Part shown: positions 6,582 to 23,964 of the stretch, one piece after another
Layout: every line of letters starts with the position of its first letter
Position numbering within the stretch: position 1 is the stretch's first letter
Source of the DNA: Gammaproteobacteria bacterium
GTDB lineage: Bacteria > Pseudomonadota > Gammaproteobacteria > SZUA-152
Direction: 5' to 3'
Length of the DNA stretch: 44,592 nt
NCBI GenBank assembly: GCA_036507695.1
Contig: DATCIR010000050.1
Span: forward strand, 1 to 44,592
Made by a program: the position numbers and the translations under genes
The notes under the pieces: generated by a model
Told to the model about the DNA's origin: nothing
The model's database searches: none
What the model saw: the letters and a program-made list of their open reading frames with translations, nothing else

Positions 6582-6725
6582 TTTACACTCTAATAACTTA
6601 CTGATGTTATTAATGTATTAAAAACCGATGGTTCCGACACCACGAGCACAAGACTTGCCTGCACAGGCCGGTTTCGTTAGACTTAGCCGTCGATCTGGAT
6701 TGGCGGCAGGGCGATTTCGCGGCGC

Positions 6726-6808
6726 TCACAGGAACCACTCACAGGCACAACACACAGGAACCACTCACAGGCACAACTCACAGGCACAACTCACACGCAC
6801 AACACAGC
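6726..6808. repeat. CA-rich tandem repeat (26-bp unit x2 with 13-bp subrepeats)
   Basis: CACAGGAACCACTCACAGGCACAAC repeated at 6726 and 6752, then CACAGGCACAACT-type subunits. It generates the low-complexity N-terminus of tracked ORF 6628-6927. Confidence 0.85.
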
Positions 6809-6819
6809 AGGAGAATGTC

Positions 6820-6927
6820 ATGGCATCTTTAACACCCATTATTTTATTTGGCGCTTTATTCCTTTTGGCTCTTTACCTCGGCGGCGCAGCCTGTGATACA
6901 GCAGCCAACGCGCGTAAAAAACAATAA
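6820..6927 (+). CDS. candidate 35-aa single-TM micropeptide
   Basis: ATG at 6820 is preceded by GCAGGAGAATGTC (AGGAG, about 7-nt spacing). MASLTPIILFGALFLLALYLGGAACDTAANARKKQ is one hydrophobic helix plus a basic tail. Lies upstream of the HCO-fragment gene. Confidence 0.4.
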   Translation: MASLTPIILFGALFLLALYLGGAACDTAANARKKQ

Positions 6928-6991
6928 CGCAACGCTACAGAATTACCGAAAATAACCATTAAAGAATTTGCAGAAACTGCTTGTTATCCAT

Positions 6992-7019
6992 AAAGCCCGG
7001 TAATCCGGGCTTTGTTGTC
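6992..7019 (+). terminator. hairpin, possible terminator or attenuator
   Basis: AAAGCCCGG / TAAT / CCGGGCTTT followed by a T-poor GTTGTC tail. Confidence 0.3.
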
Positions 7020-7065
7020 ATCAAGCAGTCAAATCGAACGACAAGAATTCGCAACAATCCGCAGT

Positions 7066-7590
7066 ATGAAAAACCAATCGTCCGAAAACCAACACCTCGT
7101 TAAATTTATCATTGCCTCCGCAGTTTGCTTTTTTGTTGGAACGGTGCATGGTGTACTGCAAGTCATGGCGCCAATTCGCGCCTGGCTGGATTCAATCGGC
7201 AGTCCTTACGGCGGCCCGGGCCACATGATCGATCCCCTCGCCCATGCCCACATCAATGTGGTGGGTGGCGTCGTGGTATTTATCATGGGTGCATCGTATT
7301 ACCTGATCCCCAAAATGGCCGGTATCGCCATCTATTCCAAAAAGCTGGTTGACCATACTTTCTGGTGGACGGTCTGCGGAATTACGGGGTTTTATTCCAC
7401 CTTGATGATTTTTGGAATTCTGGAAGGGCATGCGCTGCTGGCCAACCCGCATTCCGATGCTGCCGTACAAGCCATACACCGTTATTACGGACCGGCCATC
7501 GGGGGCGCCTCAACCGTCATGGGCATGGGCTTTTGGGTATATTTTATTAATGTGTTTCTGACGATTAAAAAGAAAATCCCTCTGCAATGA
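7066..7590 (+). CDS. stand-alone 4-TM protein homologous to helices IX-XII of C-family heme-copper oxidase subunit I (copy 1)
   Basis: AHAHINVVGGVVVFIMGASYYLIPKMAGIAIYSKKLVDHTFWWTVCG aligns with AHAHLALLGFSTFLEAAAVYYGLQTLLRRKLYSLALANFHFWMLLVG of the in-window CcoN-like protein (18780-20186). Start set at the first ATG (MKNQSS...). Confidence 0.75.
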   Translation: MKNQSSENQHLVKFIIASAVCFFVGTVHGVLQVMAPIRAWLDSIGSPYGGPGHMIDPLAHAHINVVGGVVVFIMGASYYLIPKMAGIAIYSKKLVDHTFWWTVCGITGFYSTLMIFGILEGHALLANPHSDAAVQAIHRYYGPAIGGASTVMGMGFWVYFINVFLTIKKKIPLQ

Positions 7591-8108
7591 CCAGCCGGTG
7601 CGCCTGCCCTAACCGTTACCCACAGTGGCATGAGCAGGATATCGATCTCAGCGGCAAACCTGTTCACGCGCTAAAAATTCCCTCGTTCCTGTATATGCCG
7701 CTTTCCTACGAAATGTATGTGCAAAAACAGCGTAATGATATAAAACAGCTTGAGCTTGAAGAAGAATGGCCGGGTTTTGTCTTAACCCGGACGGGATTTT
7801 TACGTGGCGAGCTGATCAGCCTGTTGACATCCGGTGACTCACCGTCGCGTTTTGTGCGCACCCTGGAAGGCATATTTCAGCTACGCGGCTATTTGCATAA
7901 TGGCGGCATTGGCACCGTCAAGCAAAGCATACGCACACTGCAAATGCAGTTGTTCGACCTTGGACGCATGCCCAGGGAATTATATTTATGTTACCTTACG
8001 TGCCCCGTTTGCAGCGGGCAAAAAGGCGGAGACAAGATTTTATTGCTGCGCCGCTGGAAAGAAAGCCCGACGCTAGCCAAGCGTATCAAAGCGCAAAAAA
8101 CCACATAA
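7587..8108 (+). CDS. hypothetical soluble Cys-rich protein
   Basis: 173 aa. ATGA overlap with the upstream HCO-fragment gene implies translational coupling. CxCP near the N-terminus and CPVC near the C-terminus give a possible 4-Cys metal site. No family recognised. Confidence 0.55.
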   Translation: MTSRCACPNRYPQWHEQDIDLSGKPVHALKIPSFLYMPLSYEMYVQKQRNDIKQLELEEEWPGFVLTRTGFLRGELISLLTSGDSPSRFVRTLEGIFQLRGYLHNGGIGTVKQSIRTLQMQLFDLGRMPRELYLCYLTCPVCSGQKGGDKILLLRRWKESPTLAKRIKAQKTT

Positions 8109-8128: not shown

Positions 8129-8563
8129 TTATGGTTTTTGTACGTGCTTTGCCAGTGGAAAGTTCAGACCGGTTTGTTTATCGGCATCCCGCTTATGCTT
8201 GAGCTGGACCGATAATACGCCGTTTTCAGGATCATCGACAGCGATGGCCCTGCGGTAAACACCCGAGTGTCCGTCCTGGATCATTTGTTGCCATTTATCT
8301 TCCTCGTTCATCCTGATGGAAACAACATACTCATAACCCGGCACACCTTTGACATCCGTTGCCACTATTACAAATTCATTCATACCCCGGGTCGGCGCGC
8401 CAGGACGGATCTCCACCAGGAACTCAGTATCATTCCAGTGTTGTGGCACCAGGATATAAGCACTGCCCTGCCAGCAACTTAACAGCAACGTTATTATCAA
8501 CGCACTGCCAACCCGGCAGCCAAGTTTACCCGCAATGCTGCCTGGAAATTTATTCACCTGCAT
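8129..8563 (-). CDS. FixH/YtkA-like periplasmic Ig-fold protein
   Basis: Start set at the internal ATG (MQVNKF...). N-terminal hydrophobic anchor, then EFLVEIRPGAPTRGMNEFVIVATD...SIRM...GVYRRAIAV, a pattern reminiscent of FixH/YtkA domains. Last gene of the minus-strand operon. Confidence 0.45.
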   Translation of the reverse strand: MQVNKFPGSIAGKLGCRVGSALIITLLLSCWQGSAYILVPQHWNDTEFLVEIRPGAPTRGMNEFVIVATDVKGVPGYEYVVSIRMNEEDKWQQMIQDGHSGVYRRAIAVDDPENGVLSVQLKHKRDADKQTGLNFPLAKHVQKP

Positions 8564-8879
8564 GTTTTTGTAAATACCCAAGGATAATGGCCGTCTCTTC
8601 AGCATTTGGGGGCGTGACTGCCTTGTTATTCATGCGCATTTCCATGCGCTGCACCACACCCGGCCAGTGTTTGGCGGTATGGATCCGGGGTAATGGCGCG
8701 GCATGACATCCACCGCACTGGCTGAGATAAAGCGCTGCCGCCCCGGATTCGTGTTCAGGATAATCACTGGGCTGAAGCAGCTTGAAGTCCGGGTCGTTGA
8801 CGCATCCGGCAAACAGCAACGCCATTGAGAGAATTATTACACCCAGAAATATAAAGCGCAGCGCACTGTGTATTTTCAT
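8550..8879 (-). CDS. monoheme c-type cytochrome lipoprotein
   Basis: Signal peptide with lipobox LFAGC. Single CGGCH heme-binding motif. 109 aa. Confidence 0.75.
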   Translation of the reverse strand: MKIHSALRFIFLGVIILSMALLFAGCVNDPDFKLLQPSDYPEHESGAAALYLSQCGGCHAAPLPRIHTAKHWPGVVQRMEMRMNNKAVTPPNAEETAIILGYLQKHAGE

Positions 8880-8931
8880 TGCTTTGTGAGCGTGGTTTTG
8901 GTTTCACACTAGTTTTGGTTTCACATGAGTT

Positions 8932-9402
8932 TCATTTTGACGATTTTGCCTTACCCGCGGGATCCCGGCTCTTCCGGCCGTCGCCGTGGCGATCCGGCAA
9001 ATCCATATCCTCCGTGCCGTCCACACTGGAGCTGTATTTATTTACCATGAAATACACAAATGCGCCAAATACCAGCAAATACAATAGCGCGGCGCCAAAA
9101 CCCCAATCCACCCACGCCCGTTCATAACCGGGGCGATCACCCCAGAACGGGAAACTGAGACCGATTGCAACCAACAACACAGCGCCGATCACCGCCAGAA
9201 ACCACTTGGGCACACCTTTTTGGGACTGAGGTATTTTCTCCACGAGTTCCCAATCTTCCAAGCCGCGCTTTTGCCGGCGTTCTTCATCGGAAGAATAGCC
9301 GAAATTATCATCGGGAATTTCACCCCAGTTTTTCTCTGTGACTTCTTTTAGTTCCGGGGTGTGTGTTTTGTCTGCCGCAGACGTTTTGTTTATTTCAGTC
9401 AT
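8932..9402 (-). CDS. membrane protein with weak FixP_N-like segment
   Basis: 156 aa, 2 TM. GVPKWFLAVIG...PFWGDRPG resembles the LPRWW motif of the CcoP N-terminal domain and the PLWGQRP segment of the 17156-17782 product. No heme motif. Confidence 0.5.
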   Translation of the reverse strand: MTEINKTSAADKTHTPELKEVTEKNWGEIPDDNFGYSSDEERRQKRGLEDWELVEKIPQSQKGVPKWFLAVIGAVLLVAIGLSFPFWGDRPGYERAWVDWGFGAALLYLLVFGAFVYFMVNKYSSSVDGTEDMDLPDRHGDGRKSRDPAGKAKSSK

Positions 9403-9413
9403 AATCGAACAGC

Positions 9414-10721
9414 CTATTTGCTCGCTACAAAGTGTTGAACACGATAACGGTCTTGCCAGCCATCCGGTGCTGATGCGATAACCAGAAACGAATGTATGCC
9501 GGGTGGCAAGCCGTCCTTGATATGTAATTGCAGATCGATACGGCCCACGTCATTAAATCGCGCCTGTGCCAGGTCAAACTGATAGAGGGATGAATCCAGT
9601 CCGTCGACGGAAATATCCACTACCGCGGAATCATAGATTTTATTGGACACGGCAACCCGGTAGTCGGAGATTTGCGGGCCATGCATGGTATCAGCCCGAT
9701 AGACCGCCAGATGAAAGCGTTCATAACTGACCAGCCCCCACACGAACATGGAAATGCCCAGTAGTGCAAACGGCATGGTCCAATGAACCCGGGACGATAA
9801 TGATGATAACCGTGTTTTCAACAATGCAAAGCGGGTTGCATCCCGATCACCGATTTTGAACCTCAGCAGGCCGGGCTGACCCTGCTTCGCCTGCAGGCTA
9901 TTACAGGCGGTAATGCATTCCCCGCAATTAATGCAAGTATCATAGATATCGGTGCTTTTGGGATCGAGCTCCAGAAAACACTGGGTCGCGCAATAGTTGC
10001 ATTTTTCACACAAAGCGGAGCGTGAGCTATCATAGGCGATATGCAAGGTATGTTGGGTTTTAAAGCCATGCTGCCAGACTTTATAGATGCACATGAACCG
10101 GCACCAGAAATGCCGTATAAACGCGATATCCAGAAATATCACCGCAACAAAAACAAAGTAGATAAAATGCAACGACCCGGCCAAACGCGCGTCCTGCTGA
10201 AACGCAATAAAGGACCAAACAACCGCCGGAGGATAAAAGTAGAACAATGGGATCAGCGCAAACAACATGGCTGCCGCCAAAAAACTGATACCGAGAATTG
10301 CCCAGTTGGACCACTTGTTTTTATTCGCTCCCACTTTCATTTTCTCGCCATCAAGCGAGAGTTCGGCGCGTTTGCCTAATAATTTTTGCGTAAGATAGTT
10401 AGCCCACTCCGATAAACTGTTTTGCGGACAAGACCAGCCGCAAAACGCAGTCCCGACCGTGGAATAGAGCAACACCGCGCCGCTGGCCAGTACCAGCCAA
10501 AAACCAAATACCAGAAAAAAATCGGACCACCAAATCTGGCGATCGAGGACCACGAACGCTCCCGCCATTGGATCAATACGAAACAAGCCGGCTGCGGGAA
10601 TCAATATGGCAACGGCGATAGTAAACCACTGCAAAGCACGGCGTTGCCAGTGCAAACGCATACTCGCTTTGGGTGTTTCCGCCGTGATGGGAATCCCGCT
10701 GAGTGAATTATTACTTTGCAT
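9414..10721 (-). CDS. ccoG: CcoG/FixG-like membrane-bound polyferredoxin
   Basis: 435 aa. CGWSCPQN, CRFMCIYK, CEKCNYCATQC and CINCGECITAC clusters. Multiple TM helices and a C-terminal beta-rich (FixG_C-like) domain. Confidence 0.8.
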   Translation of the reverse strand: MQSNNSLSGIPITAETPKASMRLHWQRRALQWFTIAVAILIPAAGLFRIDPMAGAFVVLDRQIWWSDFFLVFGFWLVLASGAVLLYSTVGTAFCGWSCPQNSLSEWANYLTQKLLGKRAELSLDGEKMKVGANKNKWSNWAILGISFLAAAMLFALIPLFYFYPPAVVWSFIAFQQDARLAGSLHFIYFVFVAVIFLDIAFIRHFWCRFMCIYKVWQHGFKTQHTLHIAYDSSRSALCEKCNYCATQCFLELDPKSTDIYDTCINCGECITACNSLQAKQGQPGLLRFKIGDRDATRFALLKTRLSSLSSRVHWTMPFALLGISMFVWGLVSYERFHLAVYRADTMHGPQISDYRVAVSNKIYDSAVVDISVDGLDSSLYQFDLAQARFNDVGRIDLQLHIKDGLPPGIHSFLVIASAPDGWQDRYRVQHFVASK

Positions 10722-10799
10722 CGCAGAAATATACCATACAGTGACTGAACGCTCACTTAATTTGACAACTGACCTTACAATACATAACGTTATCCACCT

Positions 10800-13427
10800 T
10801 CAATGTTGCAGCGCTTTATCCAGAGGACTAAGTTCAGCGAATTTTATTTTGTAACGTTGCGCTGACTCTGCATTACCACCCTCTTCCTCCAAACGCCACA
10901 TTCGTTTTAATGCGTCAGGATGATCCGGCCGGATTTTTAAAACCGATTCTAGTATGGCTTTTTCCGATATCCCGGCAGGACGGGTCATTTCATAGTTCAC
11001 CAAGGTCGCGTCCGCCACTGCGTAACTAATCCAGTGATCGCTGGGATTGGCTTGATAGGCCAGTTTCAGAAGCCGGTGAGCTTCGTTCGAATTGTTCTGC
11101 AACATCGCCAACCAACTGCGGTGAGCGAGTTCGGTTGCAATATAAGCCCTTTCAAAGGCGGCAAAGTTGGCGCTGTCCACATTAAGCTCTGCCGCCGCGG
11201 CAGATACGTGCAGCCGATGCTGCAGCAGATAATGGAGTAATTTGGCCAAATCCAATTCCCCGCTGTAGCGCGCGCCGGGCAGCCGGAATTCTATTTGCGG
11301 CGCCCATTCATCCTGAATGGGGCCAGACTCGTCGACATTAATCCTGCCCCAATAACGGCCCAGCCAGGCAAACTGGTTTTCAGTGCCCAATATCAGCTGC
11401 CGCCCTTCTGGAGACAGTCCCGCGAGGTTTTGTTCCAGAGCGGGCAATCCAGCCAATGCTCCGTTAACGCCGACCAGTGCAATACGAAATGCATCCACGA
11501 ACAATACCGCATCAGGAAAAACGTTTTTGAATGTGCGCAGGACAATCTTGAGAGACTCCAGCTCAAATTGATTGAGGGCAATCCACTGCACAAAAATTCC
11601 GTTATCCGTCAGCCGTTGCTTCACTCGCTGGAATTGCTGCCGGGAAAGCAACGCACTGCGCCCGACCAAGTCAGGGTGAAACAAGTCACCGATGATCACG
11701 TCATGTTTCCCGGGATCAGTCTTGATAAAACGCCTGGCATCGTCGCGAATAATAATGGTATGGTCAACAATATCCATGTTGACCTGATTAAACCATTCGC
11801 CGGCGGCCTCAATTGCACCCGCGGATATTTCCACGGCAGTTCGTTCCAATTTTGGATATGCCAGTGAACTGGAAGCGGAAATTCCCGTCCCTAAGCCAAG
11901 AAACAATACCGAGCGCGGTTCCGGATGCAGCAACAGCGGCAACCGCGCCTGGTTCCTTTGTGTATGCACCGAAGCGGGATCCGAAGCAGCATCCATGCGT
12001 TGCAAGTCAGCCAGTAACAATCTTTGCCCATCCTGTTTGGCAATGACGTGGGTGATATTCAGCGCGTCCTCATAACGATACAAATCGCTGGTATTGGAAT
12101 AAATTTCCGGTGCCAGCACATGTACCGGCACCATCTGGAAGACCGGTAGCGCTGCCAGCGTAACGATAGGCAGCGAAATCCAAATAACCCGTTTATTGGC
12201 CCAGGCCAGACTAAACAGCATAATCAGCAGCGCGGACACCACAATGACCGCGTAACTACCTATCAGCGGGGTCAGCAAAAAACCGGCGGCTATTGCGCCT
12301 AATGCGGCGCCAATGGAGTTGGCTCCGTATAATCTTGCGCCGCTGATGCCAGAGTCACCCAATCGCCGGTTTAACAACGGCAGCCACGCGCCAAAAATCA
12401 ATGTTACCGGCAAGGTCAGCATTGCAATGAGCGTACCCTGGTATAACAAGGCCTGGTTCAGGGATGTGATTTGCTGGAAATCGAAAAACTGAGTGAATGA
12501 TGGCAACAGCCAAAGACCGGCCACGATAAAACTACCGGCGCAAACCGGTAAGGTGTTAAACCACGCCGCTTTCACCAGGTAGCGCGCGAAATAACTGCCG
12601 GCCGCTATGCCAACCAGAAACACGGCCAATATGATTGCCAGAACATATTCCGTTCTCAGGAAAACCATGCCAAACAAGCGCGTCCAGCCGATTTCCAGCA
12701 TCAGCGAAACCGCGCCTATACCGGCGTATGCCACCAGCAGTTGTATTTGATCCGCGCTTAACCGCCGGTCATCCACTTTTGTTGCGTGGGGTAAGGCAGC
12801 CGGTAATTGACGAGACAATATTCCCGCCGCCACCGCAACGCACACACTGATACTCACCACAATGTGGAGCGCCGATGTCCAGCCCAACGCTGGCAACAAC
12901 ACCAAGGGTAGCAGCGCGCCGATAGCTGCACCCAGGGTGTTAACCGCGTAAACAACACCTAACGAAGCCGGGACTTTTTCAAACAGGGAAAGTATTAATG
13001 GAAAACCCATACCCATGAGCAAAGCCGGTAGTAGCAATACAAATCCAGTGGCAATGAACTGCAAGAAGTACCATATACCCAGTGAGAACTGCGCGGCCAG
13101 ATTAAATTGCCACGATTCGACCCATTGAAACAGCCAGGGAATAGCCAGCGAAGTACCGGCTATCACCAACTCGATAACGGCAAAGATTGCCAGGGGATCC
13201 GAGGCATACCGTAACACCCGGGTACCCAGCAAACTACCCGCTCCCAGGCCCAGCATAAACGCGGCAACGGTAATCACCACCCCGAAGATGCTGACCCCGA
13301 ATTGCAATGCCAGCATTCTGACCCACAGGACTTCATAAGCCAGGCTCGAGAGTCCGGAGAAAAAATACAGCGTCAGCACCATCAGCAGGATCGGCTTCAA
13401 CGGGTGATCAGTTAGTTGTTTTGACAC
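10800..13427 (-). CDS. fused polytopic membrane domain / spermidine-synthase-like domain / TPR-like tail
   Basis: 875 aa. About 430 aa of 12-13 predicted TM helices. Then VLFLGLGTGISA...DVIIGDLFHPDLVGRSALLSRQQF...NGIFVQW (class I SAM/aminopropyltransferase fold). Then a helical-repeat C-terminus. Confidence 0.8.
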   Translation of the reverse strand: MSKQLTDHPLKPILLMVLTLYFFSGLSSLAYEVLWVRMLALQFGVSIFGVVITVAAFMLGLGAGSLLGTRVLRYASDPLAIFAVIELVIAGTSLAIPWLFQWVESWQFNLAAQFSLGIWYFLQFIATGFVLLLPALLMGMGFPLILSLFEKVPASLGVVYAVNTLGAAIGALLPLVLLPALGWTSALHIVVSISVCVAVAAGILSRQLPAALPHATKVDDRRLSADQIQLLVAYAGIGAVSLMLEIGWTRLFGMVFLRTEYVLAIILAVFLVGIAAGSYFARYLVKAAWFNTLPVCAGSFIVAGLWLLPSFTQFFDFQQITSLNQALLYQGTLIAMLTLPVTLIFGAWLPLLNRRLGDSGISGARLYGANSIGAALGAIAAGFLLTPLIGSYAVIVVSALLIMLFSLAWANKRVIWISLPIVTLAALPVFQMVPVHVLAPEIYSNTSDLYRYEDALNITHVIAKQDGQRLLLADLQRMDAASDPASVHTQRNQARLPLLLHPEPRSVLFLGLGTGISASSSLAYPKLERTAVEISAGAIEAAGEWFNQVNMDIVDHTIIIRDDARRFIKTDPGKHDVIIGDLFHPDLVGRSALLSRQQFQRVKQRLTDNGIFVQWIALNQFELESLKIVLRTFKNVFPDAVLFVDAFRIALVGVNGALAGLPALEQNLAGLSPEGRQLILGTENQFAWLGRYWGRINVDESGPIQDEWAPQIEFRLPGARYSGELDLAKLLHYLLQHRLHVSAAAAELNVDSANFAAFERAYIATELAHRSWLAMLQNNSNEAHRLLKLAYQANPSDHWISYAVADATLVNYEMTRPAGISEKAILESVLKIRPDHPDALKRMWRLEEEGGNAESAQRYKIKFAELSPLDKALQH

Positions 13428-13469
13428 GATGCAAGGCGTAGTTACGTAAAATAGCGGCTTTCGGCGCGA

Positions 13470-13886
13470 TTAAAACGGCCAGAACCATACCATGCCGACT
13501 ATGGCATGGCCAAGCGCCAGGGTAAGACTAAGGCCGGCAAAAACCATATGCGCTATGTACACGTCTTTGCCAAAAACACCCATTGCAATGCCGAGTCCTA
13601 CTGTAATGGATATAAACAAAAGTAGCGGCACCCCCATCGCAAACATGATTTGCCGCTTGCGTTGATCGTCTATTTTTATAATTTCACTGTCGATGACGTC
13701 CCGGGAGGTAAAAGCCTGAATAACCTGCGTTTCACTGGATTTTTGCGGTGCTTCCGCGCTACCGCCGCCTGTATCCTTGTCATCCCCGGCGCTGATAGAG
13801 GAAAAAAAAATAAAAAATAAAATAGTCAGCCTGCTTAAAGTTGCGAAATCGCGAAGCGTGCTTGTTATCGAATCGGCACCGCGCAT
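13470..13886 (-). CDS. hypothetical membrane protein
   Basis: 138 aa. N-terminal hydrophobic segment plus two C-terminal TM helices. 4-nt gap from the upstream gene. Confidence 0.5.
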   Translation of the reverse strand: MRGADSITSTLRDFATLSRLTILFFIFFSSISAGDDKDTGGGSAEAPQKSSETQVIQAFTSRDVIDSEIIKIDDQRKRQIMFAMGVPLLLFISITVGLGIAMGVFGKDVYIAHMVFAGLSLTLALGHAIVGMVWFWPF

Positions 13887-13889
13887 TGC

Positions 13890-14147
13890 TTATTGCCGCT
13901 CTTCGATGGAAGACTCTGTATCGGCTTTGTTCTCCCGTTCCGCCTGGTGCTTTTTAATGGCAAAGTGCCAATATAAAACCGCGCTCAGCACGAACGGGAA
14001 CAGTATAATCAACAACAGGAAAATAAAAATAGCCCAGGGAGTATCAATCGATACACGTAAGTAACGATAACTGTCAGCAGCAAAGGCAACATGGCAAAAC
14101 AGCGTCATCCAAATCGCCAGTATTGCCATGGTGAGTTTTGTATTCAT
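13890..14147 (-). CDS. small secreted or membrane protein
   Basis: 85 aa. Signal-like N-terminus (ILAIWMTLFCHVAFA), one further TM helix and a charged tail. Confidence 0.5.
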   Translation of the reverse strand: MNTKLTMAILAIWMTLFCHVAFAADSYRYLRVSIDTPWAIFIFLLLIILFPFVLSAVLYWHFAIKKHQAERENKADTESSIEERQ

Positions 14148-14183
14148 AAGGGATATCGTGTTTACTAAACGTCGAATTAACCG

Positions 14184-15248: not shown

Positions 15249-15250
15249 AA

Positions 15251-16215: not shown

Positions 16216-16261
16216 GATGCTTTATAAAGTATTCGCATGCTGCAACAATACCTGGTCTCAG

Positions 16262-16549: not shown

Positions 16550-16558
16550 CGCTCTCTC

Positions 16559-16852: not shown

Positions 16853-16899
16853 GCTACCAACCGGGAAATGCAGAATTAGGTAACCACATTGGATTGTAT

Positions 16900-16908
16900 A
16901 TTATATCA
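16900..16908 (-). promoter_or_regulatory. possible extended -10 promoter (TGATATAAT on minus strand)
   Basis: The minus strand reads TTGTTGATATAATATAC about 48 nt upstream of the ATG at 16852, just downstream of the terminator at 16950-16981. Confidence 0.3.
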
Positions 16909-17137: not shown

Positions 17138-17155
17138 GTCGTCTCTCCCAAATTC

Positions 17156-17782
17156 TCAGTGGTGCTTCTTGTGATCCGGTTTATAGCTGTAATTTGGCAA
17201 GCGTTTTACAGCAATAATGACCGAAACGCAAAACACAATGATAAAGATGATATCGATCGTGTAGCCTTTATCCCACGTAGGTTGTATGCGAATGGTGGAG
17301 CCATCTTCACGCTTCTCACCTTCAAAATTAGCCAGTACCAGCTCGTTACCAACGACGGTGTACTCGTCCATGCGCGCCCCTTTGCGCTGCAGCTCGATGA
17401 TCTGGCCTTTGATCATTCGCAAGTCGTCCATCGTTAAGGGATGCCTTTCCTGCAGGGCCGTCCATTTTGAGCCGCCCGCGCGAACGGTATCTTCGATCCA
17501 TTTCATTGCGTCTTGGTCATTCTTGCCCTGGATCGCAGGATCGTCCATCAATTTCACATATTCTTCGTAAATCGCCGCCGTTGGGCGCTGACCCCACAGT
17601 GGCGCGGTAATCAAGAATGCTGTAATAATTGTCAGGAGCAGCAAACCTACTACCGGCGGCGGCAAACGATTGTTATTTTCAGTAATCCCACCCAGACTCT
17701 CGCCTTCCCAAAGCTTGACCGCACCCTGGTTTTGGTCATCGGTGGATAATGTATAAAGTGGATTATCAAATCTCCAAGCCAT
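17156..17782 (-). CDS. heme-less FixP(CcoP) N-terminal-domain protein
   Basis: GGITENNNRLPPPVVGLLLLTIITAFLITAPLW resembles DGIEEYDNPLPRWWF...LYP of CcoP. 208 aa, 2 TM, no CxxCH anywhere. Occupies the ccoP position after ccoO. Confidence 0.6.
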   Translation of the reverse strand: MAWRFDNPLYTLSTDDQNQGAVKLWEGESLGGITENNNRLPPPVVGLLLLTIITAFLITAPLWGQRPTAAIYEEYVKLMDDPAIQGKNDQDAMKWIEDTVRAGGSKWTALQERHPLTMDDLRMIKGQIIELQRKGARMDEYTVVGNELVLANFEGEKREDGSTIRIQPTWDKGYTIDIIFIIVFCVSVIIAVKRLPNYSYKPDHKKHH

Positions 17783-17797
17783 GTGCTACATCCCCTA

Positions 17798-18748
17798 TTA
17801 TTTTAGATTCAATACAAAGTCGATTAATGCATGCGCTTCACTGTCGGTAGCCGGCACCGGCACTTCAGGCGGATAAACGCGCGCATTAGCGACATATTGA
17901 TTATATTCAGTACGCCATTGGTCAAAGTTAATCGCATTGCCATTGGCGTCTTTCTCACCCCATAAATAATCATAACGGGGCATAATGGAGTGTGGCTGCA
18001 CTAACCGAGGATTGAAAAAGTGCATTATCATCCACTCGCGAGATGAGTTGCGTGAACCCACATGGGTTAAATCCGGAGCCTTGCGGTCTGAACCAAACGC
18101 GGTGGGACTTTCACCATTAAAGTCACCTAACATCGGCGGCGCGCCGAAATATTGCCAGTCCTGGGTTTGTTCCGGCAACAAGGTATGACACCACCAGCAG
18201 CCCTCACGGATAAACATAATCTTGCCTTTACCGATCTGGAAAGTGTTTTCGTTCGAGGCCACTTTCATGACGGCGTCCGGTGTCCAGCCACGAGTTGCGG
18301 TTACATTCTCGATGTATGGAATAGTCTCGCCGCCCTCGTCAATCTCGCGAACCACGAATACCGCGCCTTTCGTGTCATCCGCCTGCTCAATCTTGCCTAA
18401 GGTCAGGCTTTTCGCTGTTGGCTTGTCACCGAGAATGATCGGATGGCGGATACCATTCGGAAACGGTACCCCAGCGTGATACACATAAGCACGGGTAACC
18501 TCAATGCCCGCGCCGGTTTTTGGGTCTTTGGTGATTCCCACCGTAAGTGGTTTTGCCTTACCCTGTAAAAACGGGTCTTCGTAGCTGAATCCACCGACGC
18601 GTCCAAACCCCAACTGACGGTGTAATCCGGTTTCAGTCACGGATACATTACGCATGTCCGAAGCCGGCATGTACAGCGTTATGAACATCGAAGTACCAAA
18701 GGCGATCCCGAACATGCGGGCTCCAATTGTATATTCTCTAAATGCCAT
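17798..18748 (-). CDS. ccoO: CcoO-like monoheme subunit with about 150-aa insertion
   Basis: N-terminal TM helix. IREGCWWCH heme motif. FGSDRKAPDLTHVGSR, WMIMHFFNPR and SIMPRYDYLW match the CcoO blocks. About 150 extra residues sit between the anchor and the heme domain. Confidence 0.85.
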   Translation of the reverse strand: MAFREYTIGARMFGIAFGTSMFITLYMPASDMRNVSVTETGLHRQLGFGRVGGFSYEDPFLQGKAKPLTVGITKDPKTGAGIEVTRAYVYHAGVPFPNGIRHPIILGDKPTAKSLTLGKIEQADDTKGAVFVVREIDEGGETIPYIENVTATRGWTPDAVMKVASNENTFQIGKGKIMFIREGCWWCHTLLPEQTQDWQYFGAPPMLGDFNGESPTAFGSDRKAPDLTHVGSRNSSREWMIMHFFNPRLVQPHSIMPRYDYLWGEKDANGNAINFDQWRTEYNQYVANARVYPPEVPVPATDSEAHALIDFVLNLK

Positions 18749-18779
18749 GGTTTAAATCCTCCCAGTATTTTTATAATTA

Positions 18780-20186
18780 TCAACGTTCGTAGGCCAATTC
18801 ATGCGGTAAACGTCCGGCAGGGATCAACGTACCCTGACGCATTGTCTTCCACATGTTGAACAGCCATACACAGTTACCCAGGAATACCATGGTGCCGCCA
18901 ACCCAACGCGCAATCATGTACGGATGCTCGGCGATAACGACATCAATGTACGGCACTTCGTAGATTTTACCGGCGCCTTGGATCAATCCGGCGATGGTCA
19001 TGGAAATCCAGTAGGTGGTAAAACCAACCAGCAGCATCCAGAAATGGAAATTCGCCAGCGCCAGTGAATACAGTTTGCGCCTCAACAAGGTTTGCAATCC
19101 GTAGTAAACCGCGGCCGCTTCCAGGAAGGTCGAGAATCCAAGCAAAGCCAGATGGGCATGGGCCACAATCCAGCCAGTACCATGAATGTACCAGTTAATC
19201 GCGCGGGTTTGCTGGAAACCGCCTTGCATGTTTAAAGGAATAGCCATCAACACACCGGTTATGGTGAATTTGATTTCCACGTTCTCAACAAACATTTTCC
19301 ATTTGCCGGACATCGTCAGCAGCAGGTTGGATACGAAGGCGATCGCGGGTACCAGTATCAACACGCCCTCTACTGACGCGAAAGATTTCAACCATTCCGG
19401 CAGTGGCGCTGACATCAGATGATGGGCAGCGGGTGTTGAGTAAAACACCACAACCGACCAGAAATGCAAATGACCAATTCGGTGCGAATAGAGCGGATTG
19501 CCCGTTACTTTGGGTACGATGTAATACGAGATTGCAGCGGCAACCGGGGTAATCCACAAGCCCAGTACGTTGTGTGCAAACCACCAGGTCAGGTAGGCCT
19601 CGGTCAAACCGGTTAACTGGAAGAACTCCGGTGAGTTACCGACGGTGAACACAACAATAACCATGAATGTCGCTGCGCCAAAGAACCAGTTGGTGGTGTA
19701 AATACCCTGGGTGCGGCGGGTTTTTATGGTCATCACGACATTCAAGCACAGGGGGGTCAAAATACCGAAAATAATCGCCAGGTCGATCGGCCAGATCATG
19801 TCTGAGTATTCACGGCCGGATGACATGCCAAACCACAGCAGTGTCAATCCCAGGCCGAGACCCAGGTTCCAGATAAAGCAGTTCCAAATGCCCAGCTTTT
19901 CAGACCAGAGCCTGGTATTTCCCAATGCCGGCGTGATATACATCATCGCCATCGCAAACGCCATGGAAATCCAGCCCAGGATTACCGCCAGTACGTGAAC
20001 CTGGCGCATATGGCCGAACGATAGCATTTCAATTCCGGTGACAAAATCAGGAAACGCGAGCTTCGCCGCGTTGAATGAACCCAGACCGGTACCCACAATA
20101 AACCACAGAATGGACGAAAAACCGAAAAATATCGCCGCCGAACCTGGCGGGATATCTTCGTTTTTAGCAAATAAATATTTAATCAT
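18780..20186 (-). CDS. ccoN: C-family (cbb3-type) heme-copper oxidase subunit I, divergent
   Basis: 468 aa, about 12 TM. FGHMRQVH (helix II His), WWFAHNVLGLW (CuB His), FYSTPAAHH (Tyr six residues before HH, as in cbb3) and VAHAHLALLG (helix X HxH). Confidence 0.9.
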   Translation of the reverse strand: MIKYLFAKNEDIPPGSAAIFFGFSSILWFIVGTGLGSFNAAKLAFPDFVTGIEMLSFGHMRQVHVLAVILGWISMAFAMAMMYITPALGNTRLWSEKLGIWNCFIWNLGLGLGLTLLWFGMSSGREYSDMIWPIDLAIIFGILTPLCLNVVMTIKTRRTQGIYTTNWFFGAATFMVIVVFTVGNSPEFFQLTGLTEAYLTWWFAHNVLGLWITPVAAAISYYIVPKVTGNPLYSHRIGHLHFWSVVVFYSTPAAHHLMSAPLPEWLKSFASVEGVLILVPAIAFVSNLLLTMSGKWKMFVENVEIKFTITGVLMAIPLNMQGGFQQTRAINWYIHGTGWIVAHAHLALLGFSTFLEAAAVYYGLQTLLRRKLYSLALANFHFWMLLVGFTTYWISMTIAGLIQGAGKIYEVPYIDVVIAEHPYMIARWVGGTMVFLGNCVWLFNMWKTMRQGTLIPAGRLPHELAYER

Positions 20187-22284: not shown

Positions 22285-22851
22285 TTATCCCGCGTTATCC
22301 GGAGATGTGTTTGTGTTCCGTGGCGCGGGTTGGGCGGAACTCACACTGGATTCGCTACGCAGTAATCCCGCGATAATCATATCCAACTCGTTATATAACA
22401 TGCGGCCGGGTTGCTTGAACCTGACAACGTTCGAGCCATCAATAACATAGGTCCATGGATCCCCGATTACGCCAAATGCCTTAAATGCTTGCGGGTTTTG
22501 ATATTGATCCATATGTAAAAAGATCACATCCTGCTCATACTTCACTAACAGGGCTTTTAACATCTGCAGTTGGTTATCACACATTGTGCAATGGCCCGGT
22601 GTGGCAAACTCCAGAATAATTGGCTTATTTAACGTCAAGGCTTCATCAAGCGACAACAGGTACATGCGCTCGTCCGGATAGCGATAGGTGGTAATTCGGC
22701 TAAAATCTCCGCTCACATCATGCAGAGTTTTGGTGCGTAAGCTGGGAGCGCTCATCCCTACCTTGAGACTGCTGTCATCAATGGAACAGCCCGCCAGCAT
22801 TATCCCCACCAAAAACAGCGGGAGAAACCGCAATGTCGCGCGTCTTTGCAT
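22285..22851 (-). CDS. thioredoxin-fold lipoprotein (CxxC)
   Basis: Start set at MQRR..., where TAATG overlaps the stop of the upstream gene. Lipobox LAGC. ILEFATPGHCTMCDNQ is a thioredoxin-like CxxC motif. Confidence 0.7.
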   Translation of the reverse strand: MQRRATLRFLPLFLVGIMLAGCSIDDSSLKVGMSAPSLRTKTLHDVSGDFSRITTYRYPDERMYLLSLDEALTLNKPIILEFATPGHCTMCDNQLQMLKALLVKYEQDVIFLHMDQYQNPQAFKAFGVIGDPWTYVIDGSNVVRFKQPGRMLYNELDMIIAGLLRSESSVSSAQPAPRNTNTSPDNAG

Positions 22852-23414
22852 TAGGCTTTCCTCCAACCCGCACAGGTTTTAAAAAGATTATACGCCCAAA
22901 TGAAATTAGCCAACAGCACCAGGGTTCCAAACATACCCATGGTCGCCAGTAACGGCTTAACCGTACTTTCAATTTGGTCAGGCGTGGAATTCACGCTGGC
23001 CAAACCGCCTAAAACACCCGCCGCGGAAAAAAACACCACCATACCGATCAGGCCGAAATTGTGCACCCAAAAATGCCATTTCACTAATCCAATACTATAT
23101 ATCGGACGCCTCACTAAACGCGGCACGACATAATAAACCGCGGCGAAAATCGCCATCTCCACCCAACCTAACAGGTTGATATGGGTATGCGCCCTAACAA
23201 TCAAATTCCCGTGCATGCGGTGATCCACAAAATACCTGAAATCGGCGATACCACCCATTAATGCGCCCCAGGTAAAGCCGATGATGCTGTAGATGATACA
23301 AGCATAAACAAACCACAGCGTGTACTTCGTGTATTCGGTATTTTGCGCCCAAGGCTCTGTAACTGCATTTGACACGTTATTTTCCTTATTCGCTTGTTGC
23401 GGGTTGCTTGTCAC
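22851..23414 (-). CDS. stand-alone 4-TM protein homologous to helices IX-XII of C-family heme-copper oxidase subunit I (copy 2)
   Basis: AHTHINLLGWVEMAIFAAVYYVVPRLVRRPIYSIGLVKWHFWVHNFG aligns with both the 7066-7590 product and helices X-XI of the 18780-20186 product. Confidence 0.75.
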   Translation of the reverse strand: MTSNPQQANKENNVSNAVTEPWAQNTEYTKYTLWFVYACIIYSIIGFTWGALMGGIADFRYFVDHRMHGNLIVRAHTHINLLGWVEMAIFAAVYYVVPRLVRRPIYSIGLVKWHFWVHNFGLIGMVVFFSAAGVLGGLASVNSTPDQIESTVKPLLATMGMFGTLVLLANFIWAYNLFKTCAGWRKA

Positions 23415-23964
23415 GAATGTCGCTGTATTTTTCCTTCCATTCTTCCGGCGCCCATGTTTTCACCATACTATCGATAAACTCCGAGCGGCCATCCGGTGGG
23501 ACAGCCGCGGAGGCGGAACCCTGGTCGGCTTTTAATTCTGAAATGAAGCGTGCAATCGCCTTGATCTCATCGTCCGGCAACCGGGCCACATAGGCCGCCT
23601 CTTTGGGCGCCGCGCCATGATCAAGGGTACTGGCTCCGTAGGTTTGCTCAGGATTCTTCAAAAATTCGTAGAGCCAGTCGTACGTGCGCACGGACCCGAC
23701 CCCATCCAGGGATAAGCCCATATTGGTGCCGTTTCGCAAAGCACGGTGACAAGAAGTACAACGCGACTCCCGAAACAACGCGGAACCTATCGAACCTTGG
23801 TCGCTAAAATCATAGAATGTCTTGTTTTCAAACATGGGCTTATCAGCTGTCAAACGGACAGATTCCAGAATGATGTAGGCGACAACGGCCAGAAAGATAA
23901 AAACACCGAAAATGCCGAACAGAACCTTTTCACCTGTTTTCACCGTTTGTTTTTTACTGCTCAT
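23386..23964 (-). CDS. membrane-anchored monoheme cytochrome c (CcoO-related heme domain)
   Basis: N-terminal TM helix. CTSCH then LSLDGVGSVRTYDWLYEFLKNP, comparable with the CcoO GPDL..VG..W..HL.NP block. 192 aa. Confidence 0.8.
   Translation of the reverse strand: MSSKKQTVKTGEKVLFGIFGVFIFLAVVAYIILESVRLTADKPMFENKTFYDFSDQGSIGSALFRESRCTSCHRALRNGTNMGLSLDGVGSVRTYDWLYEFLKNPEQTYGASTLDHGAAPKEAAYVARLPDDEIKAIARFISELKADQGSASAAVPPDGRSEFIDSMVKTWAPEEWKEKYSDIRDKQPATSE

What the first reader, a model, noticed from the sequence alone, without database searches (positions are those of the whole stretch)
6820..8108. Stand-alone one-third of an oxidase subunit I (helices IX-XII, HxH retained), coupled to a Cys-rich protein and preceded by a micropeptide
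The 7066-7590 product (174 aa, 4 TM) aligns residue for residue with the C-terminal third of the in-window CcoN-like protein.
- LAHAHINVVGG aligns with VAHAHLALLGF.
- SYYLIPK aligns with VYYGLQT.
- IYSKKLVDHTFWW aligns with LYSLALANFHFWM.
- The last helix, GGASTVMGMGFWVYFINVF, aligns with VGGTMVFLGNCVWLFNMW.

It therefore keeps the helix X pair of histidines that ligate the two hemes in real oxidases. It lacks helix II, all CuB ligands and the cross-linked Tyr.

Its stop overlaps (ATGA) the start of a 173-aa soluble protein with CxCP and CPVC motifs. A 35-aa TM peptide with a good Shine-Dalgarno sits upstream.

A truncated oxidase-like protein present in two intact paralogous copies suggests a functional heme-binding module, not gene decay.
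Basis: partly seen in the sequence, partly recalled or inferred. Interest (0 to 1): 0.75.

Follow-up and report, generated by a model that had tools for sequence, protein, structure and literature searches.

The report
Stand-alone one-third oxidase subunit module
A small, very strongly conserved membrane protein equals just one of the three internal repeats of a respiratory oxidase's catalytic subunit; relatives with three tandem copies suggest it works as a trimer, which would let the origin of these oxidases be tested directly.

Summary
ORF 7066-7590 (174 aa, four helices) matches only the last third of heme-copper oxidase subunit I. It keeps the helix-X His-x-His pair. Its stop overlaps (ATGA) the start of a 173-aa protein with four invariant cysteines.

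It is not a gene fragment. About 970 clusters of 165-203-aa proteins match it, and dN/dS is about 0.05. The coupled downstream gene is present in 69 of 80 loci from Gamma- and Zetaproteobacteria.

New points:
- The partner has a GyrI-like small-molecule-binding fold. The label "hydrolase" comes only from the Pfam family name.
- The 35-aa peptide is conserved in about 33 of 75 loci, but a terminator-like hairpin separates it from the 4-helix gene.
- The second in-window copy belongs to a different family with different partners (a cytochrome c and a thioredoxin-like protein).
- Both copies lie in a conserved island of about 18 kb around a divergent C-family oxidase.
- Chloroflexota and Actinomycetota encode 625-1122-aa proteins made of three tandem copies of this module, at the end of C-family oxidase operons. 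Their His pattern, (x,H)(H,H)(H,Q), fits ligand pairs across repeat interfaces.

Best reading: a homotrimeric heme-binding module that acts as an accessory to C-family oxidases. Heme binding, trimer formation and the exact role are inferred, not shown.

The parts
6820..6927 (+). 35-aa single-helix micropeptide gene (N-out, C-in by positive charges at the C-terminus)
   Evidence: AGGAG lies 8 nt upstream of the ATG. Homologues of 31-41 aa with the motif (I/L)VPI(I/V)xF and an SD occur upstream of the 4-helix gene in about 33 of 75 loci, none of them labelled Zetaproteobacteria/Mariprofundales. It is called as a gene in L081, L082 and L089. dN/dS is 0.13-0.15. No Pfam family matches.
6976..7030 (+). 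GC-rich hairpin (core AAAGCCCGG-UAAU-CCGGGCUUU at about 6990-7012) between the micropeptide gene and the 4-helix gene; terminator- or attenuator-like
   Evidence: RNA fold -33.3 kcal/mol, z -2.9, with 0 of 200 shuffles as stable. An equivalent hairpin occurs in L001, L002, L004, L011 and L081, and three of these have a clear U tract. The simple terminator scan did not call it, because the U tract in the window is weak.
7066..7590 (+). HCOc4_A: 174-aa four-helix protein equal to one pseudo-repeat (closest to helices IX-XII) of C-family heme-copper oxidase subunit I. Invariant H28, H53, D56, H60, H62, H97, E120 and H138
   Evidence: Pfam, NCBIfam, PDB and Foldseek matches. About 969 homologous clusters of 165-203 aa. 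62 invariant columns in 54 sequences. dN/dS 0.04-0.06.
7587..8108 (+). 173-aa cytoplasmic partner with a GyrI-like (SHS2-duplication) fold and an invariant Cys4 site (C5, C7, C139, C142) plus H104. Translationally coupled to HCOc4_A
   Evidence: Pfam PF20603 E 1.4e-8, 35.2 bits against a cutoff of 27. AF2 pLDDT 93.5. Foldseek hits are EcmrR-C, CTR107, STM3175, lin2189 and BmrR-C at E 2.5e-4 to 1e-2, and SOUL 3r8j at E 0.11. It lies immediately downstream in 69 of 80 loci, and its start overlaps the upstream stop by 4 nt in most and by 1, 8 or 11 nt in others. dN/dS about 0.09.
8129..13427 (-). Convergent conserved operon: fused membrane/spermidine-synthase-like protein (10800-13427), CcoG/FixG-like 4Fe-4S protein (9414-10721), 156-aa membrane protein (8932-9402), 109-aa lipoprotein cytochrome c (8550-8879) and a 158-aa protein (8129-8605)
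   Evidence: Pfam Spermine_synth, Fer4_5/Fer4_18 and a weak DHC hit. The operon lies within 5 kb downstream of the A/partner pair in about 39 of 80 loci, in both Gamma- and Zetaproteobacteria.
17156..20186 (-). Divergent C-family oxidase genes: subunit I (18780-20186, 468 aa), FixO-like subunit (17798-18748, 316 aa) and a 208-aa protein (17156-17782)
   Evidence: COX1 E 3e-75 and FixO E 5e-18. End-to-end alignment to P. stutzeri CcoN (E 8e-61) with heme and CuB histidines and the Tyr in place. Same gene order in L083 and L084.
22285..23964 (-). Second module: membrane-anchored cytochrome c (23386-23964), HCOc4_B (22851-23375, 174 aa from GTG 23375) and a thioredoxin-like lipoprotein (22285-22866)
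   Evidence: COX1 positions 292-427, E 1.4e-17. 763 homologous clusters of 169-188 aa. Mean column identity 75%, with invariant H68, H76, H78, H114 and H118. 31% identical to the oxidase C-terminus, pairwise E 2e-16. Start codon read. Same gene order in L083 and L084.

Best explanation
**What it is.** HCOc4_A is a stand-alone single repeat of the three-fold pseudo-symmetric catalytic subunit of C-family heme-copper oxidases.

**How it most likely works.**
- Three copies assemble into a homotrimer that rebuilds a 12-helix, subunit-I-like body.
- b-type heme is held near the periplasmic side at protomer interfaces by the invariant H60/H62 pair. One His points to each neighbour.
- H28, H53, D56 and H138 complete a His-rich periplasmic site.
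- On the cytoplasmic face the trimer docks its translationally coupled partner, a GyrI-like small-molecule-binding protein with a Cys4 metal site.
- A one-helix peptide encoded upstream probably joins the complex.
- The complex is not an oxidase. It works as an accessory to the divergent C-family oxidase of the same conserved island. The most likely job is handling or redox-conditioning cofactors (heme, possibly copper) during oxidase and cytochrome maturation.

**Shown:** homology, fold, conservation, gene coupling, island synteny, the triple-repeat relatives and their His pattern.

**Inferred:** trimer, heme binding, the interaction with the partner, and the role.
For: **Homology and fold.**, as listed under the observation check.

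**A real gene family.**
- 969 clusters of the same length.
- 294 relatives in species-representative genomes.
- 62 invariant columns, including six His.
- dN/dS 0.04-0.06.

**Trimer.**
- A profile search over 1.84 billion representative proteins finds at least 23 proteins of 625-1122 aa, each with three full-length matches to the 4-helix profile, E down to 6e-83.
- Linkers between the repeats are short, which implies the same membrane orientation for each repeat.
- Subunit I has known C3 pseudo-symmetry with a 4-helix unit (PMC3962082, Table 2).

**Ligand pairing.** In 23 triple-repeat proteins the two His positions read as follows:
- Repeat 1: (N/Y/Q mostly; H 23/23).
- Repeat 2: (H 23/23; H 23/23).
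- Repeat 3: (H 23/23; Q 21/23).
- The only losses are therefore the two positions that would face each other at one interface.
- Canonical CcoN obeys the same rule. The helix VI CuB His aligns with the second position. Helix X supplies both positions. The helix II His aligns at or near the first position.
- Residues i and i+2 on a helix point about 200 degrees apart (general helix geometry).

**Link to heme and cofactor handling.**
- A stand-alone CcmE heme chaperone gene (Pfam E 8.8e-37) lies directly upstream of A-type paralogues in 4 loci.
- The partner has the GyrI-like fold, the same fold class as SOUL heme-binding protein.
- A CcoG-like operon lies next door in about 39 of 80 loci.
- One triple-repeat relative is fused to SCO1/SenC.
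- Another is followed by CcmF-like and glutamyl-tRNA reductase genes.

**Link to C-family oxidases.**
- The island is conserved in L083, L084 and L089.
- All four triple-repeat contexts examined sit at the 3' end of COX1-FixO operons.
- The oxidases in those operons are 36-37% identical to the window's.
Against: - No experiment or multimer model was available. Trimer and heme are inferences.
- In Proteobacteria the A/partner pair is transcribed convergently to, or kilobases away from, the oxidase genes, so it need not be a stoichiometric subunit or even co-regulated.
- The CcmE link is seen in only 4 of 80 loci.
- The match of the partner to SOUL is weak (E 0.11). GyrI-like domains bind many planar ligands, and their Cys4 site has no precedent that I know of.
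- The helix II alignment is uncertain by about two residues between methods.
- Very high sequence conservation is more typical of a catalytic or redox protein than of an assembly factor.
Confidence: 0.45

Rival explanations
1. An independent heme (or heme-metal) redox protein. The trimer, and the fused triple-repeat relatives, would be a catalytic or electron-transfer module in its own right. Examples are a membrane cytochrome b passing electrons between the cytoplasmic Cys4 protein and periplasmic acceptors, or a small-gas (O2 or NO) reductase or sensor with a non-canonical metal site. It would not be an assembly helper.
For: - Conservation is extreme, with 62% mean column identity across classes.
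- Repeat 1 of the triple proteins alone keeps H28 (19/23) and H53 (20/23) beside H62. That gives one interface with four His and one with two His, the same ligand count as a heme-CuB centre plus a bis-His heme.
- An invariant H97 sits on the cytoplasmic side.
- Paralogue B lies in an operon with a membrane-anchored cytochrome c.
- The triple-repeat genes are co-operonic with oxidase structural genes.
- The CPxC/CxCP motifs of the partner resemble rubredoxin-type knuckles (my own knowledge).
Against: - The canonical CuB HH motif and the cross-linked Tyr are absent.
- By alignment H28 corresponds to CcoN E323. As I remember it, that residue hydrogen-bonds the proximal His rather than binding metal.
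- No substrate or electron donor can be named.
- The neighbours (CcmE, SCO1, CcoG-like, CcmF-like) are maturation factors.
Confidence: 0.3
2. A heme-trafficking device. The cytoplasmic GyrI-like or SOUL-like protein hands heme to the 4-helix oligomer, which passes it to the periplasmic side, to CcmE or to apo-oxidase.
For: - CcmE is directly upstream, with a 4-nt overlap in L023.
- The partner has a planar-ligand-binding fold.
- An invariant His-rich periplasmic loop reads WLDxIGSPYGGPGHxIDPLAHAH.
- There is one invariant His on the cytoplasmic side, H97.
Against: - In oxidases the homologous His pair holds buried, non-exchanging hemes.
- No WWD-type heme-handling motif is present.
- These bacteria should already have dedicated heme export for cytochrome c maturation.
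- No transporter-like features were found.
Confidence: 0.12
3. A copper-handling module. The periplasmic His/Met/Asp cluster and the cytoplasmic Cys4 protein would bind Cu(I) and feed CuB assembly alongside the CcoG-like cupric reductase.
For: - A CcoG-like operon lies next door.
- One triple-repeat relative is fused to SCO1/SenC.
- Paralogue B has a thioredoxin-like or Sco-like neighbour.
- The partner has CxC and CPxC motifs.
Against: - The conserved His pair is the heme-ligand pair of the homologous fold.
- No CopZ-like, PCuAC-like or P1B-ATPase-like features were found.
- The CcmE, CcmF and HemA neighbours point to heme.
Confidence: 0.08
4. A decaying 3' fragment of a disrupted full-length oxidase gene, or a chance ORF.
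For: [quoted passage not shown]
Against: - Hundreds of same-length homologues exist in two proteobacterial classes.
- dN/dS is about 0.05.
- Gene coupling is conserved.
- No upstream oxidase remnants were found; the upstream neighbour is GGT or the micropeptide.
- A complete oxidase gene is present elsewhere in the window.
Confidence: 0.01

Closest known systems
CcoN, catalytic subunit of cbb3-type (C-family) cytochrome c oxidase (PDB 3MK7/5DJQ, 8SMR, 9G6B)
   Same: - Same fold as helices IX-XII, with TM 0.72-0.74.
- His-x-His aligns with H345 and H347.
- H53 and D56 line up with the SHYTD stretch, and H138 with the His of ASHPG.
- The N-in, C-in topology is the same.
   Different: - Only 4 of the 12 helices are present.
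- In a single chain there is no helix II His, no CuB histidines and no cross-linked Tyr.
- The score is far below the ccoN equivalog cutoff (37.7 against 583 bits).
- It has its own partner proteins.
- It is closer to the triple-repeat family (29-36% identity) than to the CcoN third repeat (26%).
Tandem triple-repeat 12-helix relatives in Chloroflexota and Actinomycetota (for example P0361, P0362, P0370, P0377; annotated 'cbb3-type subunit I' or hypothetical)
   Same: - Each of the three repeats matches the whole 4-helix profile.
- Repeat 2 of P0362 is 37% identical to A over 160 aa.
- They are also tied to C-family oxidase genes.
   Different: - They are a single chain with extra N- or C-terminal helices or domains, including SCO1 in P0377.
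- The His ligands have differentiated between repeats.
- No GyrI-like partner gene was found nearby.
- They too are uncharacterised.
GyrI-like small-molecule-binding domains (BmrR/EcmrR C-terminal domains, CTR107, STM3175/AlbA-like, lin2189 hydrolase) and SOUL/HEBP heme-binding proteins
   Same: The partner 7587-8108 has this fold (Foldseek E 2.5e-4 to 1e-2, TM about 0.6; SOUL 3r8j at E 0.11). It passes the Pfam PF20603 cutoff.
   Different: - It has an invariant Cys4 site (CxCP ... CPxC) and H104.
- It is translationally coupled to a membrane protein.
- There is no DNA-binding domain.
- There is no evidence of hydrolase chemistry. Sequence identity to the solved structures is 8-18%.
Styrene oxide isomerase (PDB 8PNU), a four-helix membrane protein; as I remember the publication, a homotrimer with heme b at subunit interfaces
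   Same: A weak structural match (TM 0.42-0.46). It offers a precedent for a 4-helix trimer that binds heme between protomers.
   Different: Homology is not demonstrable (Foldseek E 0.15). It has different chemistry and context. This is an analogy only.
Small one-helix subunits of cbb3 oxidases (CcoQ, CcoM)
   Same: The micropeptide is a one-helix peptide of 31-41 aa encoded next to an oxidase-like membrane protein.
   Different: No detectable sequence relationship. It is separated from A by a terminator-like hairpin. It is absent from the Zetaproteobacterial loci.

Membership tests
Heme-copper oxidase subunit I (Pfam COX1 PF00115) | Significant match to the family profile | tested here: met
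   E 3e-11, 43.3 bits against a gathering score of 34.8, but only profile positions 307-426 of 436.
Heme-copper oxidase subunit I (Pfam COX1 PF00115) | Twelve core transmembrane helices in one chain | tested here: not met
   174 aa. The AF2 model has four long helices.
Heme-copper oxidase subunit I (Pfam COX1 PF00115) | Helix X His-x-His (ligands of the high-spin and low-spin hemes) | tested here: met
   H60 and H62 align with H345 and H347 of 3mk7. Both are invariant in 54 homologues.
Heme-copper oxidase subunit I (Pfam COX1 PF00115) | Helix II His, three CuB histidines (helices VI and VII) and the cross-linked Tyr | tested here: not met
   The corresponding two-thirds of the protein is absent. 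All of these residues are present in the in-window full-length subunit.
cbb3-type oxidase subunit CcoN (NCBIfam TIGR00780, equivalog) | Whole-protein score at or above the curated cutoff | tested here: not met
   37.7 bits against 583.15. [quoted passage not shown]
Single-repeat and triple-repeat 'HCOc4' clade (proposed here; undescribed) | A 4-helix unit with the GTV(H/Q)GVxQ motif, a His pair at the start of helix 2, and W100 and W157; found either alone or as three tandem units | tested here: met
   Profile search gives 44 representatives at E <= 1e-30, including at least 23 triple-repeat proteins. Residue table.
Single-repeat and triple-repeat 'HCOc4' clade (proposed here; undescribed) | Homotrimeric assembly with heme at the interfaces | not testable with these tools
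   No multimer prediction or experiment was available. Support is only indirect, from the fused relatives and the correlated His losses.
GyrI-like domain / Pfam PF20603 'Bact_hydrolase' (partner protein) | Profile match above the cutoff and the duplicated beta-alpha-beta-beta fold | tested here: met
   35.2 bits against 27. AF2 pLDDT 93.5. Foldseek top hits are all GyrI-like domains.
GyrI-like cyclopropanoid hydrolases (lin2189 type) | Catalytic residues and hydrolase activity | not tested
   Only a fold-level match to 5x5m and 5x5r at 9-10% identity. No sequence-level hit in PDB. The name 'hydrolase' is inherited from the Pfam family.
SOUL/HEBP heme-binding proteins (partner protein) | Fold match and tetrapyrrole binding | tested here: inconclusive
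   3r8j ranks 32nd, with E 0.11 and TM 0.45-0.46. Binding cannot be tested here.
Intrinsic terminator (hairpin 6976-7030) | GC-rich stem-loop followed by a U tract | tested here: inconclusive
   The stem is strong (z -2.9) but the U tract is weak in the window, and the pattern scan missed it. Homologous hairpins in L004, L011 and L081 have clear U tracts.

The most novel reading that the evidence does not exclude
The 4-helix protein is a living homotrimeric counterpart of the unit whose triplication produced oxidase subunit I. It would hold up to three equivalent heme (or heme plus metal) sites at its interfaces.

Its fused triple-repeat relatives would then be a previously unrecognised 12-helix heme-metal protein family, built like a circularly permuted oxidase. 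One interface has four His and one has two His, but the ligand positions are not the canonical CuB ones.

The evidence does not show whether the single-repeat form is ancestral or a secondary reduction.
Probability: 0.25. Interest if true: 0.92.

Novelty: new variant of a known kind. Interest (0 to 1): 0.8.

Why it matters
**Origin of the oxidase fold.** The catalytic subunit of all heme-copper oxidases and NO reductases has a three-fold pseudo-symmetric body of 3 x 4 helices. How that body arose is an open question. I found no free-standing single-repeat homologue described in the Pfam, NCBIfam or paper collections that I could search.

This family provides both states in nature: single units and tandem triples. 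The histidine pattern of the triples follows the same "second His of repeat n pairs with first His of repeat n+1" rule as real oxidases. Whether subunit I descends from a homotrimeric heme protein can therefore be tested by expression, heme spectroscopy and cryo-EM.

**Physiology.** The genes are widespread in iron- and sulfur-oxidising Zeta- and Gammaproteobacteria. They are tied to a divergent C-family oxidase island, so they may be a missing component of microaerobic respiration or of its cofactor assembly.

Tried and rejected
**Gene fragment or pseudogene.** Rejected on family size, uniform length, dN/dS and conserved coupling.

**"Hydrolase" as the partner's function.** Rejected. The name comes only from Pfam PF20603. 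NCBIfam has no model for it and PDB has no sequence match.

**Literature.** Ten full-text searches found no description of stand-alone 4-helix subunit-I homologues. Search terms included truncated or four-helix subunit I, PF20603, DUF2871, Kaarinaea, triplication, pseudo-symmetry, Zetaproteobacteria + FixG, and truncated ccoN.
- The Zetaproteobacteria pan-genome paper mentions stalk-former-specific cbb3 and fixGH genes, but these are full-length ccoN1 and fixP.
- The library lacks most subscription journals, so absence there is weak evidence.

**Phylogeny of repeats.** In the neighbour-joining tree (100 bootstraps), A, B and each repeat are clades. Deep nodes are unresolved, so I cannot say whether A is ancestral to, or derived from, the triple form. 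An earlier run timed out and another failed on saturated distances.

**Shared accessory genes.** I searched for genes shared between the proteobacterial island and the triple-repeat operons. Only the oxidase subunits and the module itself are shared.

**Other neighbours.** The remaining neighbour clusters (GGT, RsmD, CoaD, Rho, thioredoxin, helicase and others) are housekeeping synteny, not functional partners.

- Model coordinates are not exposed, so His-His distances could not be measured.
Full report
**1. The observation**

ORF 7066-7590 (+) encodes 174 aa.
- Pfam places it on positions 307-426 of the 436-position COX1 model (E 3e-11, above the gathering score).
- NCBIfam's best hit is ccoN positions 303-460 of 474, at 37.7 bits against a cutoff of 583. 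This is a domain-level match, not an orthologue of subunit I.
- BLASTP against the in-window 468-aa subunit I (18780-20186) aligns residues 58-169 with 341-451, at 23% identity and pairwise E 2e-8. LAHAH falls on VAHAH.
- phmmer against PDB aligns H60 and H62 with H345 and H347 of P. stutzeri CcoN. From established knowledge of the cbb3 structure, these are the proximal ligand of heme b3 and one axial ligand of heme b.
- The same query also gives weaker matches to the first and second thirds of CcoN. This exposes the internal three-fold repeat.
- The AF2 model (pLDDT 82.8, four long helices) superposes on CcoN chains with TM 0.72-0.74 and rmsd 2.6-3.1 A. NorB and bo3 subunit I follow.
- The ATGA overlap, the Cys motifs of the next ORF and the SD-preceded 35-aa ORF are all in the sequence.

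**2. It is a gene family, not debris**

- A search of 5.8 billion protein clusters returns 969 hits. [quoted passage not shown]
- A scan of one genome per species finds 294 relatives. The 80 best come from Gammaproteobacteria (including Thiohalomonadales, Chromatiales and Ectothiorhodospiraceae) and from about 15 Zetaproteobacteria or Mariprofundus MAGs.
- In 54 aligned sequences, 62 columns are invariant. They include H28, H53, D56, H60, H62, H97, E120, H138 and the whole periplasmic loop WLDxIGSPYGGPGHxIDPLAHAH.
- dN/dS against the closest loci is 0.04-0.06.
- By the positive-inside rule both termini are cytoplasmic, as for helices IX-XII of CcoN. This puts H28, H53, H60, H62, E120 and H138 near the periplasmic side and H97 at the cytoplasmic end of helix 3 (read from the sequence).

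**3. The partners**

*The downstream protein.*
- The 173-aa gene lies directly downstream in 69 of 80 loci. Most of the remaining loci are cut at that point or belong to the CcmE subgroup.
- Its start overlaps the upstream stop by 4 nt in most loci, and by 1, 8 or 11 nt in others.
- C5, C7, C139, C142 and H104 are invariant.
- Its AF2 model is confident (pLDDT 93.5).
- All of its top Foldseek matches are GyrI-like ligand-binding domains: EcmrR and BmrR C-terminal domains, CTR107, STM3175 and the lin2189 hydrolase. SOUL heme-binding protein appears further down at E 0.11.
- The label "hydrolase" comes only from Pfam PF20603.
- There is no signal peptide, so the protein is cytoplasmic.

*The micropeptide.*
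- It recurs (31-41 aa, one helix, SD) in about 33 of 75 loci, none of them labelled Zetaproteobacteria/Mariprofundales.
- dN/dS is 0.13-0.15.
- Between it and the 4-helix gene lies a strong GC hairpin (z -2.9). The hairpin is conserved in other loci, where it is often followed by a U tract. The peptide is therefore probably transcribed in excess of, or separately from, the downstream pair.

**4. The neighbourhood**

- *Convergent operon.* A fused membrane/spermidine-synthase-like protein, a CcoG/FixG-like ferredoxin, a 156-aa membrane protein, a small lipoprotein cytochrome c and a 158-aa protein lie within 5 kb in about 39 of 80 loci, in both classes.
- *The rest of the island.* In the window it continues on the minus strand. 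It holds an FGE-sulfatase-domain protein, a cytochrome c, a C-family oxidase (468-aa subunit I, a FixO-like subunit and a 208-aa protein), a second 4-helix protein (B) and a c4-type cytochrome.
- *B's neighbours.* B is flanked by a membrane-anchored cytochrome c and a thioredoxin-like lipoprotein.
- *Conservation.* The same order is found in two unrelated assemblies (L083, L084) and in L089.
- *The oxidase.* It aligns end to end with CcoN and keeps all heme and CuB histidines and the Tyr. It is complete, so the small proteins do not replace a missing part.
- *Paralogue B.* It is a separate family: 763 clusters, 75% mean column identity, HxH plus H68, H114 and H118. It is 38% identical to A over 65 aa and 31% identical to the oxidase C-terminus. 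It most likely starts at GTG 23375.
- *The CcmE subgroup.* Four loci carry an A-type paralogue without the GyrI-like gene, with a stand-alone CcmE heme chaperone gene directly upstream instead. In L023 the overlap is 4 nt. Two of these MAGs also have the A + GyrI-like pair.

**5. The key new result: tandem triple-repeat relatives**

- An exhaustive profile search of 1.84 billion representatives gives 348 hits at E <= 1e-3 and 44 at E <= 1e-30.
- Among the best hits are at least 23 proteins of 625-1122 aa. Each holds three consecutive, nearly full-length matches to the 4-helix profile, joined by short linkers.
- The members that carry a name come from Chloroflexota, Chloroheliales and Gaiellales.
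- Pfam sees only weak COX1 matches in them. For most of the proteins scanned the best stretch maps to the C-terminal part of the model (one, P0364, maps to positions 1-190), so they are not ordinary collinear oxidases.
- All four genomic contexts examined place the gene at the 3' end of a COX1-FixO operon. The oxidases there are 36-37% identical to the window's.
- One triple protein is fused to SCO1/SenC. Another is followed by CcmF-like and glutamyl-tRNA reductase genes.

A fusion of three units is the classic sign that the separate units associate. Because all termini are cytoplasmic, the three units must sit in parallel, as they do in subunit I. The C3 pseudo-symmetry of subunit I with a 4-helix unit is documented (PMC3962082, Table 2).

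**6. The histidine pattern**

At the two His positions, the 23 triple proteins read as follows.

| Repeat | First position | Second position |
|---|---|---|
| 1 | N 12, Y 4, H 3, Q 2 | H 23/23 |
| 2 | H 23/23 | H 23/23 |
| 3 | H 23/23 | Q 21, L 1, H 1 |

- Residues two apart on a helix point to nearly opposite sides. The simplest reading is that the second His of one repeat and the first His of the next share a cofactor.
- On that reading two interfaces are kept and the third has lost both ligands together.
- Real oxidases fit the same rule, shifted by one repeat. The helix VI CuB His aligns with the second position. Helix X supplies both positions. The helix II His aligns at or near the first position (other alignments differ by two residues).
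- Repeat 1 alone also keeps H28 (19/23) and H53 (20/23), while repeats 2 and 3 have Q28 (23/23). One interface would therefore have four His and the other two.
- The stand-alone protein A has all of these residues in every copy, as expected for a symmetric homo-oligomer.

This is inference from conservation, not a structural result.

**7. Mechanism**

- *Shown.* Homology, fold, strong purifying selection, translational coupling to a GyrI-like Cys4 protein, the conserved oxidase island, the triple-repeat relatives and their correlated His losses.
- *Inferred.* A homotrimer with heme at the interfaces, docking of the cytoplasmic partner, and an accessory role for the C-family oxidase.
- *Preferred role.* I favour cofactor handling or redox conditioning, because the recurring neighbours and fusions are maturation factors: CcmE, CcoG-like, SCO1, CcmF-like, HemA and a thioredoxin-like protein. 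From my own knowledge, CcoG is a cupric reductase and the b-heme of CcmF is thought to reduce CcmE-bound heme. These offer precedents for such chemistry.
- *Main rival.* The module could be a redox protein or enzyme in its own right. The extreme conservation and the four-His/two-His arithmetic fit that view better.
- *Less likely.* Heme trafficking and copper handling are not excluded.

**8. Novelty**

- Neither Pfam (2025) nor NCBIfam (2026) has a model for the 4-helix family.
- Public names for these proteins are over-annotations.
- Ten literature searches found no description (see "tried and rejected").
- The fold and superfamily are known. What is new is a stand-alone single repeat with its own partners, together with natural triple fusions. 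I therefore rate it a new variant of a known kind.
- The evolutionary direction (ancestral or reduced) is unresolved.

Noticed in passing
window 6725-6812: Tandem repeat of a 13-nt unit (CTCACAGGCACAA, about 6 copies; also readable as a 26-nt unit x 3.3), immediately upstream of the micropeptide's Shine-Dalgarno. It may be a regulatory or promoter-region element.
   Followed up: no
window 6976-7030; L001, L002, L004, L011, L081 intergenic regions: A conserved GC hairpin (AAAGCCCGG...CCGGGCUUU) lies between the micropeptide gene and the 4-helix gene. In several loci it is followed by a U tract. It is probably a terminator or attenuator that sets the expression ratio.
   Followed up: partly
window 22851-23414 (-): The second 4-helix gene most likely starts at GTG 23375, which has an SD-like TAAGGA and lies 10 nt after the stop of the cytochrome c gene. 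That gives 174 aa, the same length as homologues, rather than the 187-aa ORF from 23414.
   Followed up: yes
window 8129-25036 (-); L083, L084, L089: An island of about 18 kb is conserved in gene order in unrelated Gammaproteobacterial assemblies. It holds a divergent C-family oxidase, an FGE-sulfatase-domain protein, an 875-aa fused membrane/spermidine-synthase-like protein, a CcoG-like protein, several c-type cytochromes and many unannotated small membrane proteins. Its overall function is unknown.
   Followed up: partly
L023 4495-5519; L024, L028, L029: A stand-alone CcmE heme chaperone gene lies directly upstream of an A-type paralogue that lacks the GyrI-like partner. In L023 the overlap is 4 nt. 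The same MAGs also carry the A + GyrI-like pair at another locus (L009/L024, L006/L028).
   Followed up: partly
L085 6001-8052; L086 7001-10228; L087 7001-9637; L088 7001-9184: Triple-repeat 12-helix relatives occur in Chloroflexota and Actinomycetota, always last in a COX1-FixO operon after four or more small unannotated genes. One is fused to SCO1/SenC. One is followed by CcmF-like and glutamyl-tRNA reductase genes. Some carry C-terminal extensions of about 400-500 aa of unknown nature.
   Followed up: partly
L040, L045, L049, L053, L054, L061, L070, L072, L075, L076, L079 (upstream, opposite strand); L069 4534-4956 (same strand): Zetaproteobacterial loci carry a four-helix, His-containing gene of about 137 aa with no Pfam match, next to the A gene. 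It lies divergently upstream, and in L069 it is directly upstream on the same strand.
   Followed up: no
window 18780-20186 (-): The window's oxidase subunit I scores far below the ccoN equivalog cutoff (219 against 583 bits). It is 36-37% identical to the oxidases that accompany the triple-repeat proteins in Chloroflexota and Actinomycetota. This suggests a distinct C-family subtype that travels with these modules.
   Followed up: partly
window 8129-8605 and 8550-8879 (-): The 158-aa ORF and the 109-aa cytochrome c ORF overlap by 56 nt as listed. The downstream gene probably starts at a later codon. Orthologues of the 158-aa protein are 123-190 aa long.
   Followed up: no
whole window: The window is an entire 44,592-bp contig of a third-party-annotated Gammaproteobacteria MAG. 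An identical 173-aa protein is on record, named 'hydrolase', with a longest contig of 44592.
   Followed up: no
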